A DNA stretch of 64,000 nucleotides from a bacterium (GTDB taxonomy: Bacteria > Bacteroidota > Bacteroidia > CAILMK01 > JACPUW01): contig WGNN01000006.1 in the NCBI GenBank assembly GCA_016124515.1, positions 5,638 through 69,637 on the forward strand, written 5' to 3'. The stretch's first letter is position 1. The number at the start of each line of letters is the position of its first letter. This document shows, piece after piece, positions 28,224 to 48,373 of this stretch. The notes under the pieces were generated by a model that was given only the letters and a program-made list of their open reading frames with translations, was not told where the DNA came from and ran no database searches. A program made the position numbers and the translations under genes.

Positions 28224-28245
28224 AGCCAATTTGGTACTATAGCAT

Positions 28246-28289
28246 GTTTCACAAGTCGGGTGCAGAAATTGCCACCTGACTTGTGAAAT
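28246..28289. promoter_or_regulatory. Inverted repeat (11-bp stem, 20-nt loop) between the secreted-protein gene and the helicase gene. Terminator or operator candidate.
   Basis: 'gtttcacaagtc' ... 'gacttgtgaaat' with 11 of 12 positions complementary. No strong T-run follows. Confidence 0.35.
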
Positions 28290-28323
28290 ATTTAACTATG
28301 TTGCGGCTGAAAAATCGGTTAAT

Positions 28324-31300: not shown

Positions 31301-31653
31301 AACTTGCACAGAAAACCCATAAGAACATGGGCGGCCATTTAGGTAAAAAGAGCAGTGCCAGGTACAAGATTTATCACCGCTTAAAAAGGCTGGAGCAAGA
31401 AAATGAAAACACACTTTTTGAAAGCGAAGATTTGCGCAAGGCCATTGACGATATTTACAAGTTTCCATTGCAAGAAAGTACTAAAACAAGACTCAATAGG
31501 CGTATGCGCATGGGGCTTACTGATGATGAGCTTAGCCAACTTGTAATTGGACTTAGAAACGAAGGTAGATTATGCGTGATAAGTAAAAAGGAAAGTGAAA
31601 CCAATTTGGCACCACAGGTAATTTGTTCAATGGGATTAAAAGAAGTGAATTAA
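28324..31653 (+). CDS. PLD(HKD)-family nuclease fused to an SNF2/ResIII-type SF2 helicase
   Basis: N-terminal single HKD motif 'HAKLYLAYRDD...GSSNLT'. Helicase motifs I 'GDVVGLGKTMTA', II 'IIDESHNLRN', III 'LLTATPYNKS', V/VI 'TTDVLSEGQNLQDAHVIVNFDLPW...QRAGRVDRIGQ'. Confidence 0.85.
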   Translation: MPTIYDNIREKLADELKTVVAQSYRTDFCVGYFNLRGWGTVADLIDKFGGTDENCCRLIVGMQRPSEDVLKEVLSNQKEGKVDQARVAFLKKEMAREFRDQLTYGIPTSKDENALRQLSEQLKAKKVIVKLYLAHTLHAKLYLAYRDDNKAPTIGYLGSSNLTMSGLEKQGELNVDVFEKDAADKLAQWFQDRWDDRFAIDITDELAEIIDESWAGEKVIPPYYIYLKIAWHLSQEAQTGEKNFEIPEEFNDLFSFQKKAVALAAQHLYNRNGVMIGDVVGLGKTMTASALAKLYEETFIIETLIICPKNLVEMWEDYRHKYRLRARVFSISKVNKTWLEKERRYRLVIIDESHNLRNRDGKRYGLIKDYLEQNESRVILLTATPYNKSYLDISSQLRLFMSEDQDLGFGPERFLEEIGGQTEYVAEYQSSPFSLVAFEKSEHADDWRELLKMFLVRRTRTFIKENYAEFDESKDQYYLTYDGDKRYYFPKRIPRKIEYDFDPNDPDDVYAKLFSADIVSSLNALQLPRYGLGNYIENNKRGTASNQEEEILSNLTMAGRRLMGFCRTNLFKRLESSGYSFLLSLSRHVMRNYIFIYAIENKLDLPIGVQELEMDEYLEEHDEDLAELGVLSLETDESHFQKSAKNLYNVLRDQAKKHKWISPEFFRRGLKKHLKEDAARLIEIIEMAKNWDASTDKQIDALERLCQNDFKNEKVLVFTQFADTANYLYNELKRRGVTHIAQVTGANENPTVFAHRFSPNSNKYKFKKNENELRIIITTDVLSEGQNLQDAHVIVNFDLPWALIRLIQRAGRVDRIGQKAPEIFCYSFLPADGLETIIQLRGRLQQRITENAEVVGSDEMFFDGDPVNITDLYNEKAGILDEDETDDEVDLTSKAYEIWNQATKANPKLAKEIKALPNVVYSTKPKPDAAINNGVISYHKTAFGIDVLTWLDENGNVRSKSQNRILNMLECSLETPALKRLENHHELVGKAVKLAQKTHKNMGGHLGKKSSARYKIYHRLKRLEQENENTLFESEDLRKAIDDIYKFPLQESTKTRLNRRMRMGLTDDELSQLVIGLRNEGRLCVISKKESETNLAPQVICSMGLKEVN

Positions 31654-31654
31654 T

Positions 31655-34600: not shown

Positions 34601-35041
34601 CGTGAGAATCGAATTTTCTTTAGAACTGATAGAAATCGCTTTCTAACAATCTCAGCACTTAGTAGCAGCCTATTTTATTATTATTTTATTCACACGACAA
34701 ATTGTCGCGATTTGAACCCAAACGACCTGCGGTCGTTTCCATTACTAGAGAATAAAATAGATAAACATATAGCCACTCAATTGTCTAAACTGGGTGACGA
34801 TTTGATGCGTGATTATCAAAGGACTAGTGAATTCAAGAAAAAAACATCTAGTAAAACCGGTGAAATAGAGTATCAAGAATTCTATCCAAGAAAATCAAAA
34901 GATATCATCGACCAAATCGATACAGTATTAGCGCAGCATTATGGTTTTACCGAAGCAGAATTAGATTTTATCATCAACTACGATTACAAATACCGCATGG
35001 GCGGGGCTTTAAGTGAAGGTGGAGATGGAAAAGAAGAATAA
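31655..35041 (+). CDS. Large gamma-class N6-adenine DNA methyltransferase (Eco57I/PglX/DrmMI-like), 1128 aa
   Basis: Motif X 'GAYYTKEDITEYI', motif I 'LDPTCGSGAFLFAALN', motif IV 'IIGNPPYI'. About 330-aa N-terminal and ~350-aa C-terminal (TRD-like) extensions. Its start is 1 bp after the helicase stop. Confidence 0.85.
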   Translation: MQSISKQQFKAWVKAFDFSELFNQLGWDYVDDEIYKKVGDETFTFNHVANKEGFAILVVEPDKNGQIPAAAVRKRVHTEISKLHHEHLLIFIDKNKSAQQWELILREPNKPIRTVGHKWNKQQDPELLYQKLAGAFFSFDEEGNLTIIDVVNRLKENFGANAEKVTKKFYAEFKTQHKAFLDFISGIDDHIKKGENKNKQWYASLMLNRLMFCYFIQKKGFLDGDRNYLSNKLEACKNLGANDQFYSFYRSFLLELFHDGLGKPEANRNHKIPVDLGKIPYLNGGLFDVHQLEKQFEAIQIADDAFEKIFEFFDKWEWHLDTREDATGKTINPDVIGYIFEKYINERAAMGAYYTKEDITEYISKNTILPFLFDETQRQYPKAFKTNAHIWQYLQASGSDYIYDAVKKGVPQEGELYSDLPDEIQEGFKPELEDKVVAETTEPHLWEIRRPWNQAAPEEIALPTETYRELIERRKRYADIAQKIHAGEIEKINDFITYNLNIRQFTQDYLETTNDADFIRHFYKAINKVTILDPTCGSGAFLFAALNILEPLYNTCLDRMEEFVTENPGKYKFFEDTLNKVNSPEHPSRTYFIYKSIILHNLFGVDIMKEAVEIAKLRLFLKLVSTVEVDYKKRNLGLEPLPDIDFNIRHGNTLVGFATEQELLNTIQKHDALFAQDKLDEFKDECDIVAKAYTQFSNCQLDDNVPIDDKAKAKNDLNAKLETLNSKLNKYLATNYGIDADKKPKDYGAWLESHMPFHWFAEFYQIIAGNGGFDVIIGNPPYIEYSKVRKQYTIVNKDEASCGNLFGIVTTKLDVLKNEHGRTGMIVPISLICTKRMSSVLEELKNNNLWLSHYAERPSKLFTGAEVLLTIYLTGETNLKKSQTYSTGFTKWNSNFRTFLFDSTTYQPNDSIFRNYVSTKSSSQVDLNIIYNLLERQEVIEKDIVSQSKFEIFYRIGGGRYWKIFTDFSPRFILNGVEGKSSRENRIFFRTDRNRFLTISALSSSLFYYYFIHTTNCRDLNPNDLRSFPLLENKIDKHIATQLSKLGDDLMRDYQRTSEFKKKTSSKTGEIEYQEFYPRKSKDIIDQIDTVLAQHYGFTEAELDFIINYDYKYRMGGALSEGGDGKEE

Positions 35042-36080
35042 AAAGGAATTTCTACTCACGCGTAAGCATGTGCAAATTGTTTCGTGGGTTGGTTTGTTAC
35101 TATTAATCTTTTCATTGTTTCTGCCAGCCCTATTAAGTCAAAATACAGGTTGGTGGGATTTTAGTACTACCGGAGAAATTGGCGATACCATTGGCGGTAT
35201 TCTTACACCTGCTATTGCAGTAATTGCCGCAGGTTTAACCTTTCTCGCATTTTACGTTCAGTTTGAAGCCAATCAGCAACAAAAAAATGACATTGCTCGC
35301 GAACGTTTAGAAAGGAAGTTTTATCAGTTATTGGAATTGCATAAAAAGAATGTAGATGAATTACAACTTAATGAAAAAATAAAAGGGCGACACTACTTTC
35401 CTCATTTATTCAATGAGTTTAAAGCCAGCTACTATTTATGTGAAAAATTGATGAAGGAAACGAATCAAGTAGATTCTTTAGATGACGAGATGCTTATTGA
35501 TGTAGCCTATAGATTTATGTTTTTGGGTACTAATTCATTAACTCCTGAAAACATTCCTGTTCTTTTCTCAAGGAGTTCATTTCCCTTTATTCTAAAAGCA
35601 CATAATTTAGCAACTGATGTACTACATCGAAGCTTTGATGGCCACATGAAACAGAATCCACACTTTCCGTTACAGGGATATATTTTTCAAGATAATAATC
35701 CTAAGCGTGGTGAACCATATCTCATTTATCATAAACCCTTTAGCGGGCACTCACATCAATTAGGCCATTATTTTCGAAACTTGTTTCACATGGTGAAACT
35801 TATTGATCAAAATACATGGCTTTCTGATGAAGAGAAAAAAGACTTTACAAGAATAATTCGTGCTCAACTTAGCAATGAAGAGCAGTTGATGCTTTATTAT
35901 AATGCTCAAAGCAATTACGGTAAAGCATGGTTTGAAAATGGCTATTTCAAAAAGTATAAGCTTGTGCACAATATGCCTGTTCAAATGGCTGAGATTGGAC
36001 TGAACCCGAAAAGTAAATTCATAAGTAAGTATGGTGCTTTACCAAATGGCGAAGAATACTTTGAATGGGACGAGCGATGA
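35013..36080 (+). CDS. Membrane protein, possibly of the 'putative phage abortive infection (AbiC-like)' family
   Basis: Two N-terminal TM helices flanking 'GEIGDTIGGILTPAIAVIAAGLTFLAFY', then a soluble ~280-aa domain. The Abi assignment is by recalled motif resemblance only. Confidence 0.4.
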   Translation: MKVEMEKKNKKEFLLTRKHVQIVSWVGLLLLIFSLFLPALLSQNTGWWDFSTTGEIGDTIGGILTPAIAVIAAGLTFLAFYVQFEANQQQKNDIARERLERKFYQLLELHKKNVDELQLNEKIKGRHYFPHLFNEFKASYYLCEKLMKETNQVDSLDDEMLIDVAYRFMFLGTNSLTPENIPVLFSRSSFPFILKAHNLATDVLHRSFDGHMKQNPHFPLQGYIFQDNNPKRGEPYLIYHKPFSGHSHQLGHYFRNLFHMVKLIDQNTWLSDEEKKDFTRIIRAQLSNEEQLMLYYNAQSNYGKAWFENGYFKKYKLVHNMPVQMAEIGLNPKSKFISKYGALPNGEEYFEWDER

Positions 36081-36628
36081 CTAATAAACTACTTGACAAT
36101 TTCAGAAGAAAAGTTGCCTTTAAAACATCTTTATCAGATGCTTTTAGAAGGGGTCATGTTTACAATACTGATTTTACAGAATCACAAAAGAATAAGGCAA
36201 AGGCAAGGCTAATTCCTATTCTAAAAGAAAAACTACCTTCAATTATTGAATGTTTAGATATTGAAAATGGTTACACGGAAGAAAATCTTTGCAATCAAAT
36301 AGAAAAGCTTGCAAACGATATTACCAAGCTATTGCCAAATGATTTGAACAATAGCCGTTTCAGAATAGGAACAGCCCAAAAGCTCATCAACGTATATTGG
36401 AAGTTTCTTTGGCTTTTTGAGCTTACCGAAAAGGAGCCATTGCATTGCCCGATAGATTCGATAATTCTTGGTACCTTAGATGAACCATTTAAAAGTTTAA
36501 GATGGACACAACTTGATTCAATAGGCCAGTACAAAGAAATTATTGAAGAAATACGTATAAAGGCAGAAGCTAAAGACCAATCAATTGCCGTTTGGGAGTT
36601 GGAAGTATATGACCAAAAAGTGAATTAA
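36077..36628 (+). CDS. Hypothetical protein (183 aa), translationally coupled (ATGA overlap) to the upstream Abi-like gene
   Basis: ATG at 36077 overlaps TGA at 36078-36080. No recognisable motif. Confidence 0.5.
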   Translation: MTNKLLDNFRRKVAFKTSLSDAFRRGHVYNTDFTESQKNKAKARLIPILKEKLPSIIECLDIENGYTEENLCNQIEKLANDITKLLPNDLNNSRFRIGTAQKLINVYWKFLWLFELTEKEPLHCPIDSIILGTLDEPFKSLRWTQLDSIGQYKEIIEEIRIKAEAKDQSIAVWELEVYDQKVN

Positions 36629-36637
36629 ATAATCAGT

Positions 36638-37102
36638 ATGACATTTGCCAACGAATCAGACTTTGAAGCCTATCTAAGAGGTGAAATTATTAAACCGATA
36701 ATCACCAGTCATAAGGAGTATTACTTAATGGAGAGCAAAAAGGCAGTTGATATACTTATTTGTAAAAATGGTTCTAATCCTTCATTGTACTTCATTGAAG
36801 TAAAGTATCACAAAAAACTACATGGAAGATTAGGTATAGGCCAAAGAAAAGGTGTCGGTTTTCAGCCCGAGATACTAAGCAGTAAACCGACATATTTCCA
36901 GAATAACCTTAGATGGGTAATGGGCTCTGAAAGTCATAATGGCTTTTTGTGGCTTCATAATGACGAAATTACCGAGTATCTTAATGCCGGAATGGTGGGA
37001 GGCAAATACAACGGGGTGCGGAAAAAAATCTTCAATGAAAAACCACTTTTAAACACCGCCCAATTGGAGAGCAATTTAAGAAGTTGGTTAGGTGTTGAAT
37101 AA
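36638..37102 (+). CDS. Small PD-(D/E)xK-like (restriction-endonuclease-fold) protein candidate
   Basis: 'AVDILICKNG-x11-YFIEVKY' fits the hhhD...(D/E)xK core, with an upstream acidic 'FEAYLRGE'. Confidence 0.45.
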   Translation: MTFANESDFEAYLRGEIIKPIITSHKEYYLMESKKAVDILICKNGSNPSLYFIEVKYHKKLHGRLGIGQRKGVGFQPEILSSKPTYFQNNLRWVMGSESHNGFLWLHNDEITEYLNAGMVGGKYNGVRKKIFNEKPLLNTAQLESNLRSWLGVE

Positions 37103-37140
37103 ATGTGAAATAAATTAATAGGATCAATAAAAGATGATTT

Positions 37141-37506
37141 ATGAAAATTGGAATTCAAAATTTTTTAGCCTTCATAATTCTCAACTTTGGTATGTTGATG
37201 ATACCTTTCATCGTGTTGCAGCTGCATGCTAATGATGTTCAACTTCACGAATTTTCAATAGCACTGTCGTTTTACCTTGTAGCACTTGCGTTTACTTCAA
37301 GTACGGTTATTGGGTTCATTTCTCTACTAGTTCTCTCTATTTTCACCCTTTTTGACTATGCTTTTATTGATCGAACAATACCGGTAACAAAATTGGATTA
37401 TCATGTTGCCTTATACATCGTGGCCTTTATTGCTACAATATTGATATCGTATGAAAAATACGTGAGACAAGGCCAACCAATAATTGAAATAAGGCAATTA
37501 TCATGA
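37141..37506 (+). CDS. Small integral membrane protein (3-4 TM)
   Basis: Hydrophobic throughout. ATGA overlap with the next gene. Confidence 0.4.
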   Translation: MKIGIQNFLAFIILNFGMLMIPFIVLQLHANDVQLHEFSIALSFYLVALAFTSSTVIGFISLLVLSIFTLFDYAFIDRTIPVTKLDYHVALYIVAFIATILISYEKYVRQGQPIIEIRQLS

Positions 37507-38324
37507 CGCTAATCACAATTACTATTTGCTCGCTCGCTTTGTTACCTTTGGTGTGGCAATTTGGTGCAAACATTAACGCGGACTTAAAATTTAAACGGGT
37601 TCTTAAAGCGAATAAGGAAGAAATCCTTGAGTTTATGAGTGCCATTGGCTTTCGAAGTGACCCACCTAACCCTTTTCGAGTAAACTATGCATTATATAAT
37701 TTGCTGTACATAGAGTTTGATAAGATTATAAAGGAAAAGCTGACAGGTGGTGCCAAGGCCATTATTCTGGAAAGCTTTTCACATAAAAACATTCCTCAAA
37801 CTTTAAGATTCTTGAACCGAATGCTCCCTGTAATTGGTATTGCGAGAATTGAATTTGAAGAAGCCGCACTCAAATCAACATTAGAGCAGGTACAATACAA
37901 AAAAGAGAGTGAGCAAAATGAAGAAATCAAGAGACTGAATAAAATGCTTGAAAAAGCAAATATTAAACAAAAGACAATTGAGAAGCTCGGTGAAGAAGTG
38001 AAGACTGCTTCGCAGTCAGAACAAGGTTTAGGAGTTTCAAAAGACTCTGCGATTGCAACCCAAGAATATACCATGAAGGTTAAAGAAAGAACAAGCCGCG
38101 TTCAAAGTCTTAATGATCAATTTGACAATGAGTATAGCAAATTACAATCGCTCTTTGATCGTATTGAAAACAAATTGACTGAAGACGAAAATTATTCTTT
38201 TTTCAAGAAAATGAAGGAAGTCTCTGAACGTTTAAAATCCTTAGAAGAAAATCAAAGGTATATTAATGAAGAGACCAAGAGAACTACTGAAGAGTTTCAG
38301 GAAGGTCTTGAAAAAAATGACTAG
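37503..38324 (+). CDS. Membrane-anchored coiled-coil protein
   Basis: N-terminal TM 'ITICSLALLPLVW', then a K/E-rich heptad-like region. Confidence 0.45.
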   Translation: MTLITITICSLALLPLVWQFGANINADLKFKRVLKANKEEILEFMSAIGFRSDPPNPFRVNYALYNLLYIEFDKIIKEKLTGGAKAIILESFSHKNIPQTLRFLNRMLPVIGIARIEFEEAALKSTLEQVQYKKESEQNEEIKRLNKMLEKANIKQKTIEKLGEEVKTASQSEQGLGVSKDSAIATQEYTMKVKERTSRVQSLNDQFDNEYSKLQSLFDRIENKLTEDENYSFFKKMKEVSERLKSLEENQRYINEETKRTTEEFQEGLEKND

Positions 38325-38494
38325 TAGTCGTCGATATTGTCTTGTATATGAGTGCAAGGTGATTAACCAAATTAAGCAGGCCATGACTGATTAACTTGCC
38401 TTTTACCTTAAGATGTTTTGATTGAAGTGAATAGCCGACTGAGTTTTAAGAAACTGACCAATTGGAAGCTTAAATTGCAATAGAATTAGCACAA

Positions 38495-38941
38495 ATGGAA
38501 TACCTAGGAAACAAAGAACTACTGAAACTAAAGAAAGTTTGTTTCTTATGCAGCAGAAAAATAGCTCCCAGTGCCATACTCAAGTGTTACGATTGGGCTA
38601 CGGATATGCGCAAAAAGCAGCAGTGCGTAATAATGGGTGCACACAGCCCTATAGAAAAAGATGTTTTCGACATTTTGCTCAAGGGTTCACAACCCCTTAT
38701 CTTGGTCTTGGCTAGGGGCATGAAAAGTGTTTGGAGCTCAGAAGTGCTTGATCAGATAAAAGCCGGAAGACTGTTGGTTATTGCCCCATTTGACAAAAAT
38801 GTAAAGCGTATAAGTAAGGAAACAAGTAAAAAAAGGAATGCGCTTCTTGTTTCGCTATCCGCCGAATTGGTTATCGGTTACCTTTCTACAAACAGCGATT
38901 TAAAAACACTCATTTCGGAAAGCCCATATATCATATTATAA
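38495..38941 (+). CDS. Standalone DprA/Smf-like Rossmann (SLOG-superfamily) domain protein
   Basis: 'VCFLCSRKIA' aligns with DprA 'VAIVGSRxAS'. 'CVIMGAHSPIEKDVFDILLKGSQPLILVLARGM' aligns with 'VVSGLARGIDAAAHRGAL..G.TIAVLGCG'. 'RNALLVSLSAELVI' aligns with 'RNRIISGLS..VVVVE'. Confidence 0.5.
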   Translation: MEYLGNKELLKLKKVCFLCSRKIAPSAILKCYDWATDMRKKQQCVIMGAHSPIEKDVFDILLKGSQPLILVLARGMKSVWSSEVLDQIKAGRLLVIAPFDKNVKRISKETSKKRNALLVSLSAELVIGYLSTNSDLKTLISESPYIIL

Positions 38942-40158: not shown

Positions 40159-40941
40159 ATGAACAAATTCCTACTACACCTGGCGTATGATGGAAGCGGT
40201 TTTCGTGGCTGGCAGCGACAAAAGGTGGTTGCTTCTGTGCAACAGACACTTGAAGAAAGCCTTTGCCGCGTGCTGGGCGAAACCGTAACCCTGCTGGGTT
40301 GTGGACGCACCGATGCGCAAGTGCATGCCTCGCAGTATTTTGCGCAGTTTACCTGCCGTGGCGCGGTTCCTGAAAAACTGGCCTTTATCCTGAATAAAAA
40401 CCTGCCTGAGAGCATCAGAATTTATGATGTGATAGCGGTTCCTGCCGGTTTCAATGTACTGCATCAAGCCACCTGCCGGCATTACCATTATTATTTCCAC
40501 ACGTTGCAAAATCCGTTTATACAAGCCTATAGCAGCTATTATACCTTTCCTACCTTTCAGCTTGAAAAGGCAGGGGAAGTGCTGGCACTATACAAGCAAT
40601 TCAACGACTTTAAAGCCTATTGCCTGACACCCGAAAAACACAACCACACGCTGGTAACGCTGGAAAATGCCACCATACAACACAACCCTCAAAACGGTTT
40701 GTATTGCATCCACTTTGCGGCCAAACGCTTTTTGAAAGGCATGGTAAGGGCTTTGGTTTATGATGTTTTGCAAGTGGCAAGCGGCCAAGTGGATTTGGAT
40801 GTTATTCTGCAAAAACTATCGGACAAAAACCGCACGCCCCACCTGCAATTGGCACATCCGCAGGGTTTGTATCTCAGCCAAATTGAATACCGTATTGAGG
40901 TTCCACCCCCACTCGTCGAGCCTATACGCATGCTGCTTTAG
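40159..40941 (+). CDS. truA: tRNA pseudouridine(38-40) synthase
   Basis: 'LHLAYDGSGFRGWQRQ' and the catalytic 'GCGRTDAQVHA' motif. Confidence 0.9.
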   Translation: MNKFLLHLAYDGSGFRGWQRQKVVASVQQTLEESLCRVLGETVTLLGCGRTDAQVHASQYFAQFTCRGAVPEKLAFILNKNLPESIRIYDVIAVPAGFNVLHQATCRHYHYYFHTLQNPFIQAYSSYYTFPTFQLEKAGEVLALYKQFNDFKAYCLTPEKHNHTLVTLENATIQHNPQNGLYCIHFAAKRFLKGMVRALVYDVLQVASGQVDLDVILQKLSDKNRTPHLQLAHPQGLYLSQIEYRIEVPPPLVEPIRMLL

Positions 40942-42755
40942 CCATTCCTGCGGCGCTTATTCTCTTCATTTACATTGAGTCTATACCGCATGGTGTCGCG
41001 CTTGAGCTCGGTATTTTGTTGGTCCAACACCGTCAATTGTTCTGATAGTTCGGGGTGTTTTATTATTTTATCAGCAATTATTTTATAGGCCAAATCGCGG
41101 GTAGCGGACAGTTTGTCGCGCTTTTTCAATACATGCAACATAGCCTGCAAAAGCCAATCCTTTCTTTGCTCTGCCGATACGCCTGTGGTGCTTTGTTTCT
41201 CCGCTTTCGCTTCGGAATCATCCAGCTCGCTGTGGCAGTTACGCACTTCGCGCTCCAACACCTCGTTTTCTATTATATTTTCAAAATATTTAGTTAAACA
41301 TTTGGTAGGTGCGTGCAGGTGCTGCCAACCATGCCACAGGCAACCTTGTCCTTGCTCAGGAAGGTTCAGGTAATCATGATAAATACTAGCCGCCGAAAAA
41401 TAATCCTTTTGGTGCTTATACCTATCTGCCGCCGACTCATAGCAACCGTTTGCTGAATCGTATTTTCCCATTTGTTTGTACAATTCGGCTGCTTTCATGT
41501 AGTCTTTCATTTCTACATAAAGTTCGGTGGCCTGCAACAGCATTTTCCCTTTTTCATAACATTCTGCTGCCTTCCTTTTGTCTTTCAGGTATTTCAAATA
41601 AACCGAAGCGGCCTCGGCATATTCCTTTCCGTTTTCCAGGGTTTGCGCGGCGCGTTTCGCATCTTTCAGCAATTTTAAATACACAAAGGCCGCCTTTTTA
41701 TAATCTCCAGCCGCAATCAGGTTTTTGGCAGTTTGCTCGTACTGTTCTCTCAATCGGTAAAATTCAGCACCCAAATTGATGCTCCTTCCCGAGCCATTTC
41801 CGCCTGCACCTGCGTTCAGGTTCAGACTGGGAAACAGCTCAAACAACCTGAAAAGCCCATTGTGCAAGTCATCACTTCCGCGTTGCAATCCTGATTCGTC
41901 AAGGGGAATGGCATATTTCAAGGCATTTGCCGGATCGTTCTTCAGCATCTCCATGAGTTTGTCAAGCTCTTTTTTGTTGCGCTCCAACAGGTCTTCATGG
42001 TCGGCTTCCATTTTATCAAAAAACTTGTTTATAAAATCGGGCATTATATTTTGAAGCCAAGCGGGTAGTTGTATGGTTCCCTTACCGCCTCCTTCTGTTC
42101 TTTTTTCCTTCCGCGAAAAAAGCTCATACATGCCCAAGCGAATTTTTTCCAATAAATTAAGGGGACGGTCTTGCAACTTTTCACCTTTATTATTATTGGG
42201 CCCCATCAGGTCCTCGAGCACTTTGTCGGGCTGCGGCGCTTCCAATACATAAGCATTTATTTTATGCGGAATAAATTCGCTATCCTCAGGAATGGTAATG
42301 TGGGCATCCGCCTCATTCAGGTGGATAAATTGGAGCCAATCAATTGGATTTTCCAACTCAAAAAGGCCGATTTCAGGATGCATCAAACTGGTTTTTCCCT
42401 TCAGCAATTCATCAAGTTCCTCGGTGGCAAGTTGTGGCCATAGCTCACTGTATTCAGCAATTAACAAATGCCGGTGCACGCGCAATACCCTTTGGTGGCG
42501 CCCCGCTCCTATGGTATTTTCAGTGCTTTTGGGTATTACAAGACAAGCCCACACCTTGTTGGCAACCGTACCGGGCAGGGCGTACACATCTATGTCCGAT
42601 AATGAAAATTCCATCTTTTGCAACTCTACGAGCCAATCCTGCATTTGTGCAGATTTTATTATAAAACCGGCTACGGAGTACCTGTTGTTTGGTGTAGGCT
42701 TAAGTGTGACTTGCATGTTTCCTGATATTAGTAATAAATGGAATATATACTTCAT
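40938..42755 (-). CDS. TPR-like/short helical-repeat protein (605 aa). Last gene of the MoxR-vWA operon.
   Basis: Four tandem ~27-aa repeats 'GDYKKAAFVYLKLLKD..', 'AEAASVYLKYLKDKRKAAECYEKGK', 'ATELYVEMKDYMKAAELYKQMGKYD', 'GCYESAADRYKHQKDYFSAASIYHDY'. Otherwise unassigned. Confidence 0.55.
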   Translation of the reverse strand: MKYIFHLLLISGNMQVTLKPTPNNRYSVAGFIIKSAQMQDWLVELQKMEFSLSDIDVYALPGTVANKVWACLVIPKSTENTIGAGRHQRVLRVHRHLLIAEYSELWPQLATEELDELLKGKTSLMHPEIGLFELENPIDWLQFIHLNEADAHITIPEDSEFIPHKINAYVLEAPQPDKVLEDLMGPNNNKGEKLQDRPLNLLEKIRLGMYELFSRKEKRTEGGGKGTIQLPAWLQNIMPDFINKFFDKMEADHEDLLERNKKELDKLMEMLKNDPANALKYAIPLDESGLQRGSDDLHNGLFRLFELFPSLNLNAGAGGNGSGRSINLGAEFYRLREQYEQTAKNLIAAGDYKKAAFVYLKLLKDAKRAAQTLENGKEYAEAASVYLKYLKDKRKAAECYEKGKMLLQATELYVEMKDYMKAAELYKQMGKYDSANGCYESAADRYKHQKDYFSAASIYHDYLNLPEQGQGCLWHGWQHLHAPTKCLTKYFENIIENEVLEREVRNCHSELDDSEAKAEKQSTTGVSAEQRKDWLLQAMLHVLKKRDKLSATRDLAYKIIADKIIKHPELSEQLTVLDQQNTELKRDTMRYRLNVNEENKRRRNG

Positions 42756-45273
42756 TTGCCAGTTCGCTCAAGCTTTCGGTTCTCAACTCGGTAAGATTTA
42801 CCGTGCGGTTTACCACCTCAATTTCGCATCTGTAGGTAGCGCTTTTCAGTTTTTTTGTTGCTTTCAGGGCTTTTTGTTCGTCTTGAAAATCGATATAATT
42901 CAGTCCGTTCTGCAAAGCTTGTTCCACTCTGTTTCGGGAATAGAAATCACCAAATTCATTGAGCAGTGTAACCATTGCCGCAAAATCGCGCACTTTAAAT
43001 TTTACTCTGTAAAGTGGTGTACTTTCAAAATAATCGTTGCCCCAAAATAGGGTGTCTGTAGCAAAGGCAAGAGGCATGTCAAGTATGGTTGGAATATAAA
43101 AAACGGGGATTTCCTTCATAGCACTTTTGCAAACCAAAAAGCCCTTTCTATTGAGAAACACCTCGCTCCCGTCGGTAAATGCAAAATGGTTGGGCGCCAC
43201 CATCGCGGCATTCTGTTGTTTTAAATCCATTTTGCTGCCGCGCAACACAAGGTATTCGTGGCTGCTGTTAGCATTCAATTCAAGCACATGGCCATTAAGC
43301 ACCAGATGGCCTTTTTCGTCGATGCCCAGGGTTTTCAGCTTTCGGATAGCAGAATTATTATTTGGATACAGGCTGTTTTTATGGTTTTTATAATAAGCCA
43401 AACGCTGTTGCACATGACTGTAATTGATCAAGGTATTTTCAGTAACCGTACCGTCAAGCGCTATTTTCCAGCCATTGGAAGCTCCGCTTTCCTGCATGTG
43501 GTAAAAGGCATCTTCAAAGAAAACAAAATGCCCCAAATCGCTTTTCCAATACCTGTTGAATTGCTTAAAATCCAAGGAAATATGCGTTTTCAAATGGTGG
43601 TTGATGAGCTCAATTGTTTTATCGTGTTCAGAAAAACTGAGCTGTACTACATGGCCTGCCGTGCTGCGCCCTACCTCATGAGCACCATAACTTCTGCAAT
43701 TTCCAATAAATTCATAACCTTTTAAATACCTGCCTGAAAGCACTCCTGCAAACCTGAACAAGCCCTGTTTTGTTACCGCAAAATATTCGTGGTCATTATT
43801 ATCTGTTATAATCAACTTGACGAAAATACCCGCTACGCTCAATAAAAACGGTGCGTCAAAATCATATAAATGTGCCGATTTATGCTGTGAGCTTACGGAT
43901 TCAGCTTTTGGCACCTTGCCGGCCCATTGCTTTTGCAGGTCAATTTGAAAATCCTGAAGATGTTGTTGCGATTTGCCCCTGAGGCGGTACACCGAAACCG
44001 CACCCGTACTATTTAGCAGCATTTTATAATGAATCAGGTGGCGGTATTCCTGCAACACGCGGTTCAGTTCTTCGCTTCTATACGCATCCCCCGAACTGAT
44101 GAAAAACACCTGTCGCGTGGCCGCATTGCTGTTTTCGCGCAAATATTTTTCAAGGGCTTGGGCCACGTGTAGTTGCGGACTCAGGCTGTATTGTGCTTCT
44201 ATTACCTGATCAACTGTTTTCATTTCCTGTGGCTTCGGCTCCTCGCCCAGCAAAATGGTTTGGCAGCGGTAGTTGTTGCGCGGGTGGTTTTCCATGGCAA
44301 GTGCCAGGGCCAAAGCTACCGTTTTGGGTACGCCCCAATTTCGAATACTTGTGTCTATTAGAAAAATGCGTTCGTGGGGATGGTCTTCAGGCGGCACTTC
44401 GCGCTCCATATACAGGGCTTCGTTGTTGGCCAAACGGCTCATAAAAGTCAATTCGTCGTGCGCATGTTCAGAAATGAGCAGTTGACTAAAATCGCCTTTA
44501 TTAGTAATATCAGCAAAACCACCAAGTGGCTGCAAACCCGGTTGAATATAATGGTATGGAATGCTTAAACCGCTCCAGATTGACTTGACCAAACTGCCCA
44601 CCTTATAGGCAATATGGTCTTGACAAAGTGATTCTATGAAATTGTCAGTTGCGGGCTTTTGCGAAGTCGAAGGCATTTCTATAGGTTCCATTTCCACCTG
44701 CGGCAGGTTGGCTATGGCATTCAAAATATCATCAACCGATTTGAACTTGCGCGACAAAATTTCCAATACCAAAAAATCATCATAAACCAAATAGGTATTG
44801 AAACTGGCGTCAGCAGGTGGTCGCCCGCCCACCGCTATTACTTTCAACTGCGCTGCCACAAAGGGCAGTTTTTTGGCAGAAAGGCCTTTGTGACTTTGAA
44901 AAAACAGCGCTTGCAACATACGCTTGCGTCCTTCGCCCGATTTGTATTGCGCGGGCAGTTGGTACAAAAGATGCAACAATTTATCGGTTTCTTCAAAATC
45001 AAAGGGCTTTTTGGTAAAAGCCATTGCCTCGTTTATGCGTTTTTTTACAACCAACATATCACTTGCTCCCTGATGGTTGGTGGCAATAATGGCCAATAAC
45101 AAAGCACCAAAGCGCGGCAAGCCATTGGGAAAACCACTTTGCAACACTTCAAGCACAAAAGCCGTATAAGCGATGGTATTTCCATTTCTAATAGAAATAG
45201 TTTGTCCGCTCACATCCCATGCCCAAAAATAATGCTGCATGGCTTCAAGGTATGTTTCCTCTCGCTTTTTCAA
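42700..45273 (-). CDS. Large (857 aa) protein with a putative vWA-like domain
   Basis: Candidate MIDAS-like strand 'ERIFLIDTSIRNWGVPKTVALALALA'. It pairs with the RavA-like ATPase in a tight operon. The domain call is tentative. Confidence 0.5.
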   Translation of the reverse strand: MKKREETYLEAMQHYFWAWDVSGQTISIRNGNTIAYTAFVLEVLQSGFPNGLPRFGALLLAIIATNHQGASDMLVVKKRINEAMAFTKKPFDFEETDKLLHLLYQLPAQYKSGEGRKRMLQALFFQSHKGLSAKKLPFVAAQLKVIAVGGRPPADASFNTYLVYDDFLVLEILSRKFKSVDDILNAIANLPQVEMEPIEMPSTSQKPATDNFIESLCQDHIAYKVGSLVKSIWSGLSIPYHYIQPGLQPLGGFADITNKGDFSQLLISEHAHDELTFMSRLANNEALYMEREVPPEDHPHERIFLIDTSIRNWGVPKTVALALALAMENHPRNNYRCQTILLGEEPKPQEMKTVDQVIEAQYSLSPQLHVAQALEKYLRENSNAATRQVFFISSGDAYRSEELNRVLQEYRHLIHYKMLLNSTGAVSVYRLRGKSQQHLQDFQIDLQKQWAGKVPKAESVSSQHKSAHLYDFDAPFLLSVAGIFVKLIITDNNDHEYFAVTKQGLFRFAGVLSGRYLKGYEFIGNCRSYGAHEVGRSTAGHVVQLSFSEHDKTIELINHHLKTHISLDFKQFNRYWKSDLGHFVFFEDAFYHMQESGASNGWKIALDGTVTENTLINYSHVQQRLAYYKNHKNSLYPNNNSAIRKLKTLGIDEKGHLVLNGHVLELNANSSHEYLVLRGSKMDLKQQNAAMVAPNHFAFTDGSEVFLNRKGFLVCKSAMKEIPVFYIPTILDMPLAFATDTLFWGNDYFESTPLYRVKFKVRDFAAMVTLLNEFGDFYSRNRVEQALQNGLNYIDFQDEQKALKATKKLKSATYRCEIEVVNRTVNLTELRTESLSELANEVYIPFITNIRKHASHT

Positions 45274-45980
45274 ACTGCCTTTTTCATAGTTTCAAGCGTT
45301 TTTTGCACCGAACTGCGGCTGAGCGCTTTGCACCAGGTTTGTTTAATAAGCAATTGCTGTGTAGGTGTAACTATAATAAAACCTGAGTCGCTACCTAGCA
45401 ATTTTTTCTTTACCAGAGGAAGCAATAGCGGCAACTGAGGCTGCCAACCGGGCGGAAACAAAAAGGCCTCTTGCTGCCAAAACACCTCGCCGGGAAGGGG
45501 TAGCGGCGGGTGGCCCAGCACAAGGGCTTTTTGCCCCAAAATGGTCCACTGCAAATGCCTGAATCGAAAGACCGGGTTGTGCCGCACATATTGCAACAAT
45601 AACTGTAAATCAACCAGTTGAGCAGCGGTTTCACAGGCGGTTTCGGCCCGCACCAATTGTACGAAAATGTTGTCTTGCAAGCCAAAAAAATGGTGGTTGT
45701 AGCCGCCCATTTCCACAGGCAAGGCGCGCGCTATGGGGCTAAACAACACATCGGGCATGCGCCGCTGACGCAATTTGCTGCCATAGTGCATGAGCCAACC
45801 CTGCTGTTCGCTATAGGCCACTAGGCCCGGAATTTTTCTAATAACGGGCGCTTGTATATCACTATCGGACAAGCCTTTGAGCCAATACAAATCGTGGTCG
45901 GAGCCCAGCATTACATGCGGCCAATGGCGGATATTGCCCAACATATCAACCTGCGTTTGGGGAATGCTTGCCAGTATCAT
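45270..45980 (-). CDS. Hypothetical protein (236 aa), operon partner of the MoxR ATPase
   Basis: 4-bp overlap with the downstream gene and direct abutment to the ATPase gene. No motif. Confidence 0.5.
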   Translation of the reverse strand: MILASIPQTQVDMLGNIRHWPHVMLGSDHDLYWLKGLSDSDIQAPVIRKIPGLVAYSEQQGWLMHYGSKLRQRRMPDVLFSPIARALPVEMGGYNHHFFGLQDNIFVQLVRAETACETAAQLVDLQLLLQYVRHNPVFRFRHLQWTILGQKALVLGHPPLPLPGEVFWQQEAFLFPPGWQPQLPLLLPLVKKKLLGSDSGFIIVTPTQQLLIKQTWCKALSRSSVQKTLETMKKAV

Positions 45981-47111
45981 TCAGACTTCTTGTAAAAGTT
46001 GTTTCCACAAGTTTTCCAGCTCATGTTGCAGTTGCTCGCGGTGTACCTCGTTGTGCAGCCAACTCACCCGGTTTTGTATAAACCGCAATTTGTCTTTCAA
46101 GGCATTTTTCTCGTCATAACCCGTTTGGCTTTCGGTCAACTTCTTTTTGATGAGTTCAATATCATGCAACAACTCTTCGGCAGAGGGCAATTGCTGTGCT
46201 TTTGCCCGTGGATGCGCAGGTCCGTCACTGTCTTTTTCAATAACCGATTGCACCATTCCTGCAAGTATTTCAATTTGATCTTCGGTGTCCCAAATGTATT
46301 TGAGCACCCACAAATCCGACAAAATTGCGCTGCTTCTTCCGCTGAGCAGAGCACTTGCCGCCACCAGGTTTTGCACTTTCACGGCGCGTCGGTCCGAAAC
46401 TTTTATGCCCGTATTGCGCAGGTTGTGCACCAGGTTAATGTAAGCCTTTTGCACCGGCATCAAATCCACTTTTCGCGCTTCCAATTGCAGGCTTTTAAGC
46501 TCATCAGGGGTAATGGTGGGCTGCTTTATTTGATCCGCATTTTCCAACTTCCAACCCGCCTGAAGCACACTTTCCAGCAAATCGGTGTCAACATAATTGC
46601 AGGGCACGCGAATCAAAAAGCGATCGAGCAGGGCTGCCAGCGATTCATCTTCGGGCAACAGGTTGCTTGCACCCACAAAAATGAGGGCGGGCAATTTGCG
46701 GGTTTCCTTACCGCGGCGAAAAATCCGCTCGTTAAGCGCCATGAGCAAGCTGTTGAGAATGGCGCTGTTGGCATTGAAAATTTCATCTAAAAACACCACG
46801 GAAGCTTCGGGCAACATGCCTTCAGTATTGGTTACCAAATCGCCTTCGCGCAGTTTCCTAATGTCAAACGGGCCAAATATTTCGTTGGGTTCGGTAAATC
46901 GTGTCAGTAGGTATTCAAAGTTTTTGCCCCCTTCCACACCATTGGCCAACTGCCGCACTATGGCACTTTTGGCCGTACCGGGCGGGCCCAACAGAAAGGC
47001 ATTTTCGCGGGCAACAAGCCCAATGCCCAGCAGGTCAATGATTTCGTCTTTGCCTACAAACGAATCTTTTACGTAAGCCAAAACGCTTTTCAGTTTTTCA
47101 ATTGCTTCCAT
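45981..47111 (-). CDS. RavA-like MoxR-class AAA+ ATPase
   Basis: Walker A 'AFLLGPPGTAKSAIVRQL'. 'FEYLLTRFTEPNEIFGP'. Walker B 'VVFLDEIFNANSAILNSLLMALNER'. Sensor region 'GASNLLPEDESLAALLDRFLIRV'. Confidence 0.9.
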   Translation of the reverse strand: MEAIEKLKSVLAYVKDSFVGKDEIIDLLGIGLVARENAFLLGPPGTAKSAIVRQLANGVEGGKNFEYLLTRFTEPNEIFGPFDIRKLREGDLVTNTEGMLPEASVVFLDEIFNANSAILNSLLMALNERIFRRGKETRKLPALIFVGASNLLPEDESLAALLDRFLIRVPCNYVDTDLLESVLQAGWKLENADQIKQPTITPDELKSLQLEARKVDLMPVQKAYINLVHNLRNTGIKVSDRRAVKVQNLVAASALLSGRSSAILSDLWVLKYIWDTEDQIEILAGMVQSVIEKDSDGPAHPRAKAQQLPSAEELLHDIELIKKKLTESQTGYDEKNALKDKLRFIQNRVSWLHNEVHREQLQHELENLWKQLLQEV

Positions 47112-47117
47112 TATTTA

Positions 47118-47735
47118 TTAGGTTAATGCATTGTTTTTCAAAAATTTATACTCATACATTCCGCTGTATTCACGCGCCAAGGAGCGCCAGGGTTCTTGTG
47201 CAAGCAAGTGGTTTTGATTGTGCTCCAATAGGCGGTCAAGTGCCAGTAAACGTAGCGCCGGATTCAGGTACAGCTCATCGCTTACTTGCTTGGCATCGCT
47301 TCTGAGCAAAGCGGTATAGCTGCACAAATCCACCTGTTTTATTAGAATTTCAACCAAAGGATCTTCGGAATCCAATAACCGCAAAGCCTTAATGAGTTGC
47401 GGTAAAAAACGCAGACAAAGGTCAGCCGACAACACTTCCTGCACGGGGACGGGTTCGCTGCGCAATGTCAGTTGTGCTTCAATGAGCTCCACATTTTCGT
47501 GGCGGTTGAGGTAGAAGTAGGCTGCCTGCGCCACCAAACGGGCAGCCCAAACCGCCGTTTCGCTGCAAAATGCGGGTGGATTTGCCGGATATTCCAGACA
47601 CTCGCGGGTGTATTCTGCCTGAAGAAAAGCGGCTACTGCGGTCTGCTCTTCCTTGGCAAAAGAGGGCATTTCGTGGCCAATATGCACTTCGGCAGTTTGG
47701 CGCAACTGATGCACAAATTCGCTAAACCCAATCAT
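47118..47735 (-). CDS. Hypothetical protein (205 aa). First gene of the MoxR-vWA operon.
   Basis: Its stop lies 6 bp upstream of the ATPase start. No motif. Confidence 0.5.
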   Translation of the reverse strand: MIGFSEFVHQLRQTAEVHIGHEMPSFAKEEQTAVAAFLQAEYTRECLEYPANPPAFCSETAVWAARLVAQAAYFYLNRHENVELIEAQLTLRSEPVPVQEVLSADLCLRFLPQLIKALRLLDSEDPLVEILIKQVDLCSYTALLRSDAKQVSDELYLNPALRLLALDRLLEHNQNHLLAQEPWRSLAREYSGMYEYKFLKNNALT

Positions 47736-47800
47736 TTTGCTTTATTTTGGCTATAAAAATATAGTTTAGCCCCCTTACCACCCAACATAAGCACAAAAGA

Positions 47801-48373
47801 ATGGCAAATACCTATTTTTACGAAGAACAGTTCAAGCAAATTGACGTGAAAAAAGGCCTGACAAAAGGTTCGTACGAGGCTTGTCAATTTTTGAACTGCA
47901 CCCTGCCCACCACCAATTTAGAGCATTATGAATTTGTTGACTGCGAATTTGTTGACTGTGATTTGAGCAGCTCGTTAATTACCCATACGGCGTTTAAGAA
48001 TGTGCAATTTGTGGGCTGCAAACTCATGGGACTACACTTTGACACCTGCAATTCGTTTTTGCTGGAAATGCATTTTGAAAAGTGCCACCTGCAAATGAGT
48101 ATTTTTTATAATTTGAAATTGAAGGGCAGTCGGTTTATTGATTGCATGCTGCAACAAGCCGACTTTTCGGAAGCAGACCTATCGGGTGCTGATTTTGCGG
48201 GAAGCCAATTGCAAGATGCGGTTTTTGACCACAGCAACCTGGAGAAAAGCAATTTTGCAGGCGCTATTGACTACCAAATAAATCCGGTAAACAACAAGCT
48301 GAAAGGCGCACGTTTTTCAAAAGACGGTTTGCAGGGTTTGCTTACGGGTTTGGGCATAGTGGTGCTTGACTGA
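47801..48373 (+). CDS. Pentapeptide-repeat protein (Qnr/MfpA/McbG-like)
   Basis: Two blocks of A(D/N)LxX repeats: 'CEFVDCDLSSSLITHTAFKNVQFVGCKLMGLHF' and 'QADFSEADLSGADFAGSQLQDAVFDHSNLEKSNFAGA'. Confidence 0.85.
   Translation: MANTYFYEEQFKQIDVKKGLTKGSYEACQFLNCTLPTTNLEHYEFVDCEFVDCDLSSSLITHTAFKNVQFVGCKLMGLHFDTCNSFLLEMHFEKCHLQMSIFYNLKLKGSRFIDCMLQQADFSEADLSGADFAGSQLQDAVFDHSNLEKSNFAGAIDYQINPVNNKLKGARFSKDGLQGLLTGLGIVVLD

What the first reader, a model, noticed from the sequence alone, without database searches (positions are those of the whole stretch)
40938..47735. Five-gene operon built around a RavA-like MoxR AAA+ ATPase, a vWA-like 857-aa protein and a TPR-like 605-aa protein: candidate vWA-MoxR 'ternary' NTP-dependent conflict system
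The AAA+ protein matches RavA almost motif for motif ('FLLGPPGTAKS', 'FEYLLTRFTEPNEIFGP', 'VVFLDEIFNANSAILNSLLMALNER').

It is co-directional and overlapping or abutting with four further genes: a 205-aa protein upstream and 236-, 857- and 605-aa proteins downstream.

The 857-aa protein has a vWA-like core strand ('IFLIDTSIRNWG'). The 605-aa protein ends in short helical TPR-like repeats.

MoxR plus vWA plus a third 'VMAP'-type component have been described in comparative-genomics work as NTP-dependent biological-conflict systems. This gene set does not look like the housekeeping RavA-ViaA pair. It also does not look like the Bacteroidota BatA-E aerotolerance operon, given the wrong MoxR subtype and very different partner sizes. 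The three largest products are essentially unannotatable by eye.
Basis: partly seen in the sequence, partly recalled or inferred. Interest (0 to 1): 0.8.

Follow-up and report, generated by a model that had tools for sequence, protein, structure and literature searches.

The report
Five-gene MoxR–vWA–propeller conflict-type cassette
This is a real five-gene operon belonging to an already catalogued but never experimentally studied family, the "MoxR–vWA–β-propeller ternary systems", in which an ATP-driven motor is thought to switch on a sensor and scaffold complex; it is a divergent new member, not a new kind of system.

Summary
Five co-directional, overlapping or abutting minus-strand genes lie at 40938-47735, and the quoted motifs are present.

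All five products match dedicated Pfam families of the "MoxR-vWA-beta-propeller ternary system" (Kaur et al. 2020, subsystem 4):
- bpX4
- bpMoxR, a RavA-like AAA+ ATPase
- bpX2
- an 857-aa protein with bpX0, vWA, propeller/bpX1 and a degenerate L12-CTD
- a bpX3 plus TPR/SNAP-like protein, more likely 592 aa than 605

The same five-gene order occurs in every sufficiently complete related locus among the 80 examined, in unrelated genomic contexts. Relatives were found in 478 of 185,579 species genomes, mostly Bacteroidota, and in no phage. That excludes a housekeeping, Bat or RavA-ViaA assignment.

The conflict role itself is unproven:
- there is no recognisable enzymatic effector
- neighbours are not clearly enriched for defence genes
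- no experimental paper was found

Verdict: new, divergent member (37% or less to its nearest relative) of a known, computationally defined kind. Interest is moderate.

The parts
47736..47800 (-). 65-nt intergenic region upstream of the first gene, shared with a divergent pentapeptide-repeat gene. This is the probable promoter region.
   Evidence: Read directly. It contains TATATTTT about 20 nt upstream of the ATG, which resembles the Bacteroidota -7 element TAnnTTTG (my own knowledge). The sigma-70 and terminator scans were at chance level. Low confidence.
47118..47735 (-). Gene 1: bpX4 protein, 205 aa. Fold and function unknown.
   Evidence: Pfam PF19920 bpX4, E=9.1e-45, covering 4-198. Present as the first gene in all complete related loci. 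No relative in the PDB by profile search. No transmembrane segment.
45981..47111 (-). Gene 2: bpMoxR, a RavA-like MoxR-clade AAA+ ATPase of 376 aa. Walker A is G42-PPGTAK48-S and Walker B is D109-E110. It has an AAA lid and a helical tail of about 90 aa, and no LARA domain.
   Evidence: Pfam bpMoxR 2.3e-102, AAA_5 3.8e-26, AAA_lid_8 1.7e-10. RavA structures match at 4e-44 over residues 21-282 only. Median identity to homologues in 72 loci is 66%.
45270..45980 (-). Gene 3: bpX2 protein, 236 aa. Fold and function unknown.
   Evidence: Pfam PF19918 bpX2, 1.1e-54. Always sits between the MoxR gene and the vWA gene. No PDB relative by profile search.
42700..45273 (-). Gene 4: the vWA component, 857 aa. 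Domain order is bpX0, conserved segment, vWA, beta-propeller/bpX1, degenerate L12-CTD, C-terminal helix.
44719..45183 (-). bpX0 domain (aa 31-185) of the vWA component; mainly helical.
   Evidence: Pfam PF19915, 2e-22. AF2 gives helices 55-188 with pLDDT mostly 80-96.
44386..44598 (-). Most conserved segment of the whole protein (aa 226-296): GGxxDxxNKG..LLxSExA..FxSRLANNEALYxxRExPP. Probable docking or regulatory element.
   Evidence: 17 of the 26 invariant columns of the 51-sequence alignment lie here. The conservation index is 0.72, against 0.27-0.44 for the globular domains. AF2 gives it low confidence, pLDDT about 41-58.
43918..44385 (-). vWA (Rossmann-like) domain, aa 297-452, with a degenerate MIDAS motif: D307-x-S309-x-R311.
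43018..43839 (-). Beta-propeller-like region including bpX1 (aa 479-752).
42808..43017 (-). Degenerate ribosomal L7/L12 C-terminal-domain-like insert (aa 753-822).
   Evidence: It aligns with the PF00542 insert of homologues. A profile of that insert scores 59 bits against the E. coli L12 CTD but only 9 bits against the window copy. The AF2 topology is beta-alpha-alpha-beta-alpha-beta. The factor-binding positions are not retained.
40938..42716 (-). Gene 5: the third component, 592 aa. It has an N-terminal bpX3 alpha/beta domain, a long linker that is partly disordered, and a TPR/SNAP-like solenoid.
41877..41927 (-). Near-invariant linear motif ALKYAIPLDExGxxRG (aa 264-280 of the 592-aa form) in a low-confidence linker. 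Candidate ligand for the vWA face.
   Evidence: L266, Y268, P271, D273, R279 and G280 are invariant in 47 sequences. pLDDT is 36-74 around it. The ligand role is inference only.

Best explanation
The locus is a complete, probably functional copy of the beta-propeller-type MoxR-vWA 'ternary' system. In practice it is a fixed five-gene cytoplasmic machine.

Shown here: family membership of all five proteins, the vWA, propeller and TPR folds, strict five-gene synteny, and a rare distribution in unrelated genomic contexts.

Inferred, by analogy with studied MoxR-vWA pairs (RavA-ViaA, CbbQ-CbbO, Rea1/Midasin) and following Kaur et al. 2020:

1. The RavA-like AAA+ hexamer uses ATP to remodel the vWA protein.
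2. The vWA domain has a MIDAS-like face in which a conserved Lys/Arg replaces a metal-ligand Ser. That face holds an acidic peptide.
3. My candidates for that peptide are the invariant PLDE..RG motif of the TPR protein, or the highly conserved segment just upstream of the vWA domain.
4. The fast-evolving propeller would sense a trigger.
5. The TPR/SNAP-like protein and the small bpX2 and bpX4 proteins would scaffold or gate assembly.
6. No enzymatic effector is present, so the output is most likely non-enzymatic. Options are sequestration, dominant-negative binding or assembly of a multimer, serving a conflict or stress response.
For: Membership:
- Six dedicated Pfam families, at E values from 1e-16 to 1e-102.
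- The family is described in PMC7159879, section 22.
- That description includes the GxxxTAKS P-loop variant, which is GPPGTAKS here.

Folds:
- TPR/SNAP-like.

Operon: overlapping or abutting genes.

Synteny:
- The order bpX4>MoxR>bpX2>vWA>bpX3 holds in 64 clean loci, plus variants explained by frameshifts or contig ends. No exception was seen.
- The order also holds in a distant (23% identity) megaplasmid variant.

Accessory character:
- 478 of 185,579 species genomes carry it.
- About 1,166 clusters at 50% identity, out of 1.84 billion.
- No flanking gene family is shared by more than 7 of 80 loci.
- No recurrent neighbour domain.
- It occurs across phyla and on two megaplasmids.

Rate asymmetry typical of a motor plus adaptors: MoxR is 66% identical to its homologues, against 31-34% for the other four. 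The propeller and the L12 insert are the most variable parts.

Local context: a restriction/abortive-infection island lies 0.85 kb away in the window.
Against: - No effector domain is recognisable in any of the five proteins, and no PADLOC model matches them.
- Immediate neighbours in 75 related loci are ordinary genes. Two of 135 matched retron-type RT models; 23 further PADLOC models, each with at most two matching members, were not listed. Roughly 9-10 of 138 second and third neighbours are defence-like. I had no matched control, so enrichment is unproven.
- The cassette's GC content (0.46-0.47) equals the backbone's, and no bounding repeats were found. There is therefore no sign of recent mobility.
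- The architecture is uniform, without the effector swapping typical of conflict systems.
- No experimental paper was found.
- The ligand and sensor assignments are untested inferences drawn from conservation and from AF2 confidence.
Confidence: 0.6

Rival explanations
1. A cellular, non-conflict chaperone or remodelling module. Like RavA-ViaA, CbbQ-CbbO or NorQ-NorD, the MoxR-vWA pair would mature or regulate an endogenous client complex. The TPR, bpX2 and bpX4 proteins would be adaptors, and the cassette would be an accessory physiological trait of some Bacteroidota.
For: - All experimentally studied MoxR-vWA pairs are of this kind (established knowledge).
- There is no effector and no PADLOC hit.
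- Neighbours are mostly metabolic or secreted proteins.
- GC content is native and there are no mobility signatures.
- Gene content is strictly uniform.
- The ATPase is very conserved.
Against: - No conserved neighbouring client gene exists in 80 loci.
- The distribution is very sparse and crosses phyla.
- Four of the five proteins evolve fast.
- Domains are gained and lost (the L12-CTD insert, an extra TPR gene, a PAP2 fusion), as in conflict systems.
Confidence: 0.25
2. A translation-directed switch. The L7/L12 C-terminal domain inserted in most homologues would act as a decoy or bait for translational GTPases (EF-Tu, EF-G, IF2, RF3). It would either guard them against phage manipulation or sequester them to arrest translation once the MoxR motor exposes it. 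This would be a bacterial echo of Rea1/Midasin acting on ribosomal particles.
For: - The insert in homologues is a bona fide L12 CTD: 59 bits against E. coli L12, and PF00542 hits in many homologues.
- The positions I recall as factor-binding (K65, I69, K70, R73, L80, K84) are retained in most of 27 insert-bearing homologues.
- Rea1 and MDN1 MIDAS domains are among the structural matches of the vWA domain.
Against: - The insert is absent from many homologues, for example the 770-780-aa forms.
- In the window copy the key positions are replaced (T, N, R and E at 70, 73, 80 and 84), and the sequence no longer matches Pfam.
- Kaur et al. interpret the domain only as a multimerisation module.
- The residue roles come from memory, not from a tool.
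Confidence: 0.1
3. A diverged copy of the housekeeping RavA-ViaA pair or of the Bacteroidota BatA-E aerotolerance operon.
For: - The ATPase core is RavA-like.
- A TPR protein is present, as in BatC and BatE.
Against: - The RavA NCBIfam score is 186 bits against a cut-off of 681, and the LARA and triple-helix domains are missing.
- No ViaA, DUF58 or BatA-D family hit was obtained. AAA_3 scores 22.9 bits, below its cut-off of 27.
- No transmembrane segments are present.
- All five proteins match a different dedicated family set.
Confidence: 0.02

Closest known systems
Beta-propeller-containing MoxR-vWA ternary systems (Kaur, Burroughs, Iyer & Aravind 2020, eLife 9:e52696, 'vWA-MoxR subsystem 4'; Pfam bpMoxR PF20030 and bpX0-bpX4, PF19915 and PF19917-PF19920)
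   Same: - All five proteins match the family models.
- The vWA domain is followed by a propeller.
[quoted passage not shown]
- An L12/ClpS-type insert is present.
- The MIDAS motif is degenerate.
- The P-loop is of the GxxxTAKS type.
- No conventional effector is present.
- The host is of Bacteroidota type.

   Different: - The third component has neither the propeller nor the membrane-spanning segment that the paper calls typical.
- bpX2 and bpX4, described as present in 'a subset', are universal and fixed in order in the 80 loci examined here.
- The window member is divergent, at most 37-39% identical to its nearest relatives.
- Its L12 insert has decayed.
VMAP-type vWA-MoxR ternary systems (same paper, subsystem 1)
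   Same: A MoxR plus vWA core with a third conserved protein, and a predicted NTP-gated conflict role.
   Different: - No VMAP family hit at E up to 1.
- No fused effector domains.
- The MoxR is of the RavA-like bpMoxR type.
- I did not see the N-terminal WxhapG/PsWRxa motifs described for VMAP-system MoxR when reading the translation.
RavA-ViaA (E. coli)
   Same: The AAA+ module aligns motif for motif (4e-44, residues 21-282 against RavA 25-293), and it is partnered with a vWA protein.
   Different: - No LARA or triple-helical domain.
- The partner is an 857-aa multidomain protein unrelated in sequence to ViaA.
- Three extra obligatory genes are present.
- The NCBIfam RavA score is far below its cut-off.
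Esr threat-sensing pathway of Actinomycetales (bioRxiv 10.64898/2026.09.08.750141)
   Same: MoxR and vWA proteins coupled to a sequence-diverse beta-propeller sensor. This is an experimentally supported role in sensing a biological threat.
   Different: In Esr the propeller is on a secreted filamentous protein, and signalling runs through a kinase, a phosphatase and an FHA protein to Esx genes. None of those components is present here.
Rea1/Midasin MIDAS-UBL and CbbQ-CbbO
   Different: In the known systems the metal-binding MIDAS motif is intact. Here it is DxSxK/R without the second Asp.

Membership tests
MoxR-vWA-beta-propeller ternary system (Kaur et al. 2020; Pfam bp* families) | MoxR ATPase of the bpMoxR type, often with a GxxxTAKS P-loop | tested here: met
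   PF20030 at 2.3e-102, 340.8 bits against a cut-off of 27. The P-loop is GPPGTAKS.
MoxR-vWA-beta-propeller ternary system (Kaur et al. 2020; Pfam bp* families) | vWA domain strictly followed by a beta-propeller in the same protein | tested here: met
MoxR-vWA-beta-propeller ternary system (Kaur et al. 2020; Pfam bp* families) | N-terminal helical domain (bpX0) and C-terminal beta domain (bpX1) on the vWA component | tested here: met
   bpX0 2e-22 at residues 31-185; bpX1 1.3e-16 at residues 695-752.
MoxR-vWA-beta-propeller ternary system (Kaur et al. 2020; Pfam bp* families) | Third conserved component with an N-terminal globular domain and C-terminal TPR repeats (typically also a propeller and a membrane-spanning segment) | tested here: inconclusive
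   bpX3 (2.4e-38) and a TPR/SNAP-like solenoid are present. The propeller and the transmembrane segment are absent in this member and in its roughly 570-590-aa relatives. The paper calls those two features 'typical', not obligatory.
MoxR-vWA-beta-propeller ternary system (Kaur et al. 2020; Pfam bp* families) | Linked accessory genes bpX2 and bpX4 | tested here: met
   PF19918 at 1.1e-54 and PF19920 at 9.1e-45. Their positions are conserved.
MoxR-vWA-beta-propeller ternary system (Kaur et al. 2020; Pfam bp* families) | Role in biological conflict (anti-invader function) | not testable with these tools
   Only indirect evidence is available. The distribution is sparse. Defence-gene neighbourhood is weak and uncontrolled. 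A defence island is adjacent in the window. No experimental paper was found.
VMAP-type vWA-MoxR ternary system | A VMAP protein (VMAP-C domain) as third component, and effector domains fused to the vWA or VMAP proteins | tested here: not met
   No VMAP or effector family among the Pfam hits at E up to 1 for any of the five proteins.
RavA-ViaA | Full-length RavA (AAA+, triple-helical and LARA domains) with a ViaA partner | tested here: not met
   NCBIfam RavA scores 185.8 bits against a cut-off of 681, covering only model positions 11-305 of 498. The PDB alignment stops at RavA residue 293. No ViaA-family hit.
BatA-E aerotolerance operon | AAA_3-type MoxR, a DUF58 protein, and membrane-anchored vWA proteins BatA and BatB | tested here: not met
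   AAA_3 scores 22.9 bits, below its cut-off of 27. No DUF58 or Bat hits. No transmembrane segments.
Canonical metal-binding vWA (MIDAS) domain | DxSxS...T...D metal-coordinating motif | tested here: not met
   The family consensus is D307-x-S309-x-K/R311, with no conserved Asp after beta4. This agrees with the paper's remark that some of these vWA domains lack one or both aspartates. The fold is nevertheless vWA.

The most novel reading that the evidence does not exclude
The cassette is not a phage-defence module. It is a five-protein, ATP-gated machine that interfaces with the translation apparatus. Its ancestral output module would be the inserted L7/L12 C-terminal domain, which baits or sequesters translational GTPases. 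The invariant disordered motifs (GGxSDLTNKG...RLANNEALY in the vWA protein and PLDE..RG in the TPR protein) would be the latches that the MoxR motor opens. This would be a prokaryotic counterpart of Midasin-type AAA+/MIDAS remodelling. The window copy would be a lineage in which the bait has decayed.
Probability: 0.1. Interest if true: 0.75.

Novelty: new member of a known kind. Interest (0 to 1): 0.35.

Why it matters
The family is one of the least understood of the predicted NTP-dependent conflict systems. It has no recognisable effector and, as far as the searchable literature shows, no experimental work at all.

This analysis sharpens what an experiment should target:
- The unit is five obligatory genes, about 6.8 kb, small enough to transplant.
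- The motor is highly conserved, while its four partners evolve about twice as fast.
- The two best-conserved elements outside the ATPase are short, probably disordered motifs. These are natural candidates for the vWA ligand or the motor's substrate.

If the system does protect against invaders, it would represent a non-enzymatic defence output. If it does not, the blanket 'conflict' label for MoxR-vWA ternary systems would need correcting.

For genome annotation there is a practical point. Many homologues of the vWA component are mislabelled 'ribosomal protein L7/L12'.

Tried and rejected
- PADLOC and NCBIfam scans of the five proteins found nothing beyond a partial RavA match.
- The conserved N53/C58/Q78/H113 in bpX3 might form a catalytic Cys-His site. 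I could not test this without coordinates, so I do not claim it.
- No hits in viral contigs or in the phage collection.
- The Rfam scan of the window found no RNA families.
- No tRNA genes were found.
- The repeat search found no bounding repeats. There is thus no evidence of an integrative element.
- Sigma-70 promoter and terminator scans were at chance level.
- Defence-island enrichment was attempted by scanning 273 neighbour genes against PADLOC. The tool reports only per-family counts and I had no matched control. The result (a few retron, RM, MADS, PD-T4-6 and PDC hits) is descriptive only.
- The Bat operon, RavA-ViaA and VMAP assignments were considered and rejected on family scans.
- The divergent pentapeptide-repeat gene at 47801-48373 was considered as a sixth component and rejected. 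Pentapeptide domains do not recur among the 135 immediate neighbours of related loci.


Full report
**1. Observation**

The ORF list shows five co-directional minus-strand ORFs filling 40938-47735.

| Coordinates | Length |
|---|---|
| 47735..47118 | 205 aa |
| 47111..45981 | 376 aa |
| 45980..45270 | 236 aa |
| 45273..42700 | 857 aa |
| 42755..40938 | 605 aa |

- The junctions are a 6-nt gap, direct abutment, a 4-nt overlap and an overlap. This is the signature of one translationally coupled operon.
- A public assembly of the same sequence carries identical gene calls, except that the last product is 592 aa.
- That shorter form starts at M14 (42716). It fits the Pfam alignment, and an identical 592-aa protein is in the database (P0121).

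**2. Identity of the five proteins**

Pfam assigns every product to a family created for one system, the "MoxR-vWA-beta-propeller ternary system".

| Product | Pfam match |
|---|---|
| 205 aa | bpX4, 9e-45 |
| 376 aa | bpMoxR 2e-102, with AAA_5 and AAA_lid_8 |
| 236 aa | bpX2, 1e-54 |
| 857 aa | bpX0 2e-22 and bpX1 1e-16 |
| last protein | bpX3, 2e-38, plus weak SNAP/TPR matches |

- These families derive from "vWA-MoxR subsystem 4" of Kaur, Burroughs, Iyer & Aravind 2020 (PMC7159879, section 22).
- The paper describes a vWA protein that always carries a C-terminal propeller.
- L12/ClpS inserts occur in Bacteroidetes.
- MIDAS aspartates are sometimes missing, and the P-loop is of the GxxxTAKS type.
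- There are no conventional effectors, there is a third TPR-containing component, and there are extra linked genes of unknown fold.
- PADLOC has no model for any of the five proteins. NCBIfam gives only a sub-threshold RavA match.

**3. The ATPase**

- The 376-aa protein aligns to RavA structures at E=4e-44, over residues 21-282 against RavA 25-293.
- Walker A is GPPGTAK48S and Walker B is D109-E110.
- It lacks RavA's triple-helical and LARA domains and ends in a helical tail of about 90 aa.

**4. The 857-aa protein**

- A 51-sequence alignment (A1) gave an AlphaFold model with mean pLDDT 82.8.
- Across the family D307 is invariant and S309 nearly so. The third MIDAS position is Lys/Arg in 50 of 51 sequences. 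W313-G314 are invariant, and no Asp is conserved after beta4.
- The MIDAS motif is thus degenerate. A basic side chain may replace the metal, which is inference.
- The best-conserved part of the protein is not a globular domain. It is the 70-residue stretch before the vWA domain (aa 226-296; conservation index 0.72 against 0.27-0.44 elsewhere), which AlphaFold models with low confidence.
- Residues 753-822 have the beta-alpha-alpha-beta-alpha-beta order of an L7/L12 C-terminal domain. They align with the PF00542 insert of homologues.
- A profile of that insert scores 59 bits against the E. coli L12 CTD but only 9 bits against the window copy.
- The positions I recall as contacting translation factors are kept in most of 27 homologues and lost in the window. 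The residue roles come from memory.
- Some homologues lack the insert altogether.

**5. The third component**

- The AlphaFold model (pLDDT 81.5) shows an N-terminal alpha/beta domain (bpX3).
- A long linker of mostly low confidence follows. It contains one long helix and the nearly invariant motif ALKYAIPLDExGxxRG.
- There is no propeller and no hydrophobic segment. This differs from the 'typical' architecture in the paper.
- Relatives are uniformly 560-596 aa.

**6. Conservation, distribution and context**

- A scan of one genome per species found relatives of the vWA component in 478 of 185,579 genomes. Most are Bacteroidota, with isolated Gammaproteobacteria, Ignavibacteria/Kapaibacteria and Verrucomicrobia records.
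- A profile search of 1.84 billion cluster representatives found 1,166 hits at E≤1e-30.
- In the 80 loci fetched, the order bpX4>MoxR>bpX2>vWA>bpX3 is invariant wherever the contig is long enough.
- The order also holds in a 23%-identical variant on a Hymenobacter megaplasmid, whose third component is 959 aa.
- The flanks are unrelated. The commonest flanking family occurs in 7 of 80 loci.
- Among 135 immediate neighbours, no Pfam family recurs beyond generic T9SS tails.
- MoxR is 66% identical (median) to the window protein. The other four are 31-34% identical.
- The cassette is absent from viral contigs and phage genomes.
- Together these results exclude a universally conserved housekeeping operon.

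**7. Is it a defence system?**

- In the window, the cassette lies next to truA. A low-GC island begins 0.85 kb beyond truA. It encodes an HKD-SNF2 helicase, a Type IIG restriction-modification enzyme (PADLOC 4.5e-286), an AbiC-like protein and a PsyrA/DprA-like protein.
- Across related loci the picture is weak. Two of 135 immediate neighbours matched retron-type RT models, and 23 further PADLOC models with at most two members each were not listed.
- Roughly 9-10 of 138 second and third neighbours match defence models. These include Type I and Type IV restriction, retron XIII partners, PDC-S02, PD-T4-6, MADS and MkoA.
- Without a matched control this is not evidence of enrichment.
- The cassette itself has backbone GC content, no bounding repeats and no nearby tRNA.
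- I found no experimental paper on this subtype.
- A 2026 preprint shows that a different MoxR-vWA-propeller pathway (Esr) senses epibionts in Actinomycetales. This lends plausibility to a sensing role but not proof.

**8. Mechanism**

Shown:
- an intact RavA-type motor
- a vWA fold with an altered MIDAS motif
- a variable propeller
- a TPR/SNAP-like scaffold
- two invariant motifs that are probably disordered
- an obligatory five-gene stoichiometry
- no enzymatic effector

Inferred:
- The motor remodels the vWA protein or a peptide it holds.
- The acidic PLDE motif, or the pre-vWA segment, is that peptide.
- The propeller senses the trigger.
- The output is assembly or sequestration.

I put membership at about 0.95, a conflict or stress-sensing role at about 0.5-0.6, and the specific docking model at 0.2 or less.

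**9. Verdict**

This is a divergent new member of a known, computationally defined family.
- It is not VMAP-type, not RavA-ViaA and not Bat.
- It is not categorically new. Its interest lies in the family being experimentally untouched and lacking an obvious effector.

Noticed in passing
window 26673-38941: A low-GC (0.35-0.39) island on the + strand that looks like a defence island. It holds an HKD/PLD-SNF2 helicase (28324-31653) and a Type IIG restriction-modification enzyme (31655-35041, PADLOC 4.5e-286). It also holds an AbiC-like protein (35013-36080) and a DprA/PsyrA-like protein (38495-38941). Several ORFs have no family hit: 26673-28223 (516 aa), 36065-36628 and 36638-37102. ORF 37503-38324 has only a weak PADLOC DruC match (6.7e-05).
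   Followed up: partly
L075:3784-5493: In one Cytophagales MAG, a 569-aa gene with AAA-ATPase_like and PD-(D/E)XK (PDDEXK_9) domains is inserted between bpX2 and the vWA gene of the cassette. It may be a selfish insertion or an acquired nuclease partner.
   Followed up: partly
L070:12062-13087 (also L076, L079): Chryseobacterium loci carry an extra 341-aa SNAP/TPR-like gene directly after the third component. It looks like a duplicated scaffold module.
   Followed up: partly
L056:8606-10984: In a Puia MAG, the bpX3 reading frame continues without a stop into a PAP2 (membrane phosphatase) domain. This could be a real fusion giving a membrane-bound third component, or an assembly artefact.
   Followed up: no
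homologues P0009, P0010, P0018, P0041, P0044, P0091 and others: Many vWA-component homologues are named 'ribosomal protein L7/L12' in NCBI and JGI because of the inserted L12 C-terminal domain. This is a systematic misannotation.
   Followed up: yes
window 40938-40941: The third-component gene and the convergent truA gene (40159-40941, + strand) overlap by 4 nt at their 3' ends. This leaves no room for a terminator between them.
   Followed up: no
L082 (NZ_CP115397.1 117336-125172) and NZ_CP111047.1: The cassette occurs on two large non-mobilizable plasmids, in Hymenobacter yonginensis and Chondrinema litorale. The Hymenobacter copy is a distant variant with the same five-gene order, no L12 insert and a 959-aa third component.
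   Followed up: partly
window 40938-42716, aa 53-58, 78 and 113-117 of the 592-aa protein: The bpX3 domain has nearly invariant N53, W56, G57, C58 and Q78, and invariant H113-P114 and G117. A Cys/His pair could mean a catalytic or metal site, which would supply the 'missing effector'. This was not testable without model coordinates.
   Followed up: no
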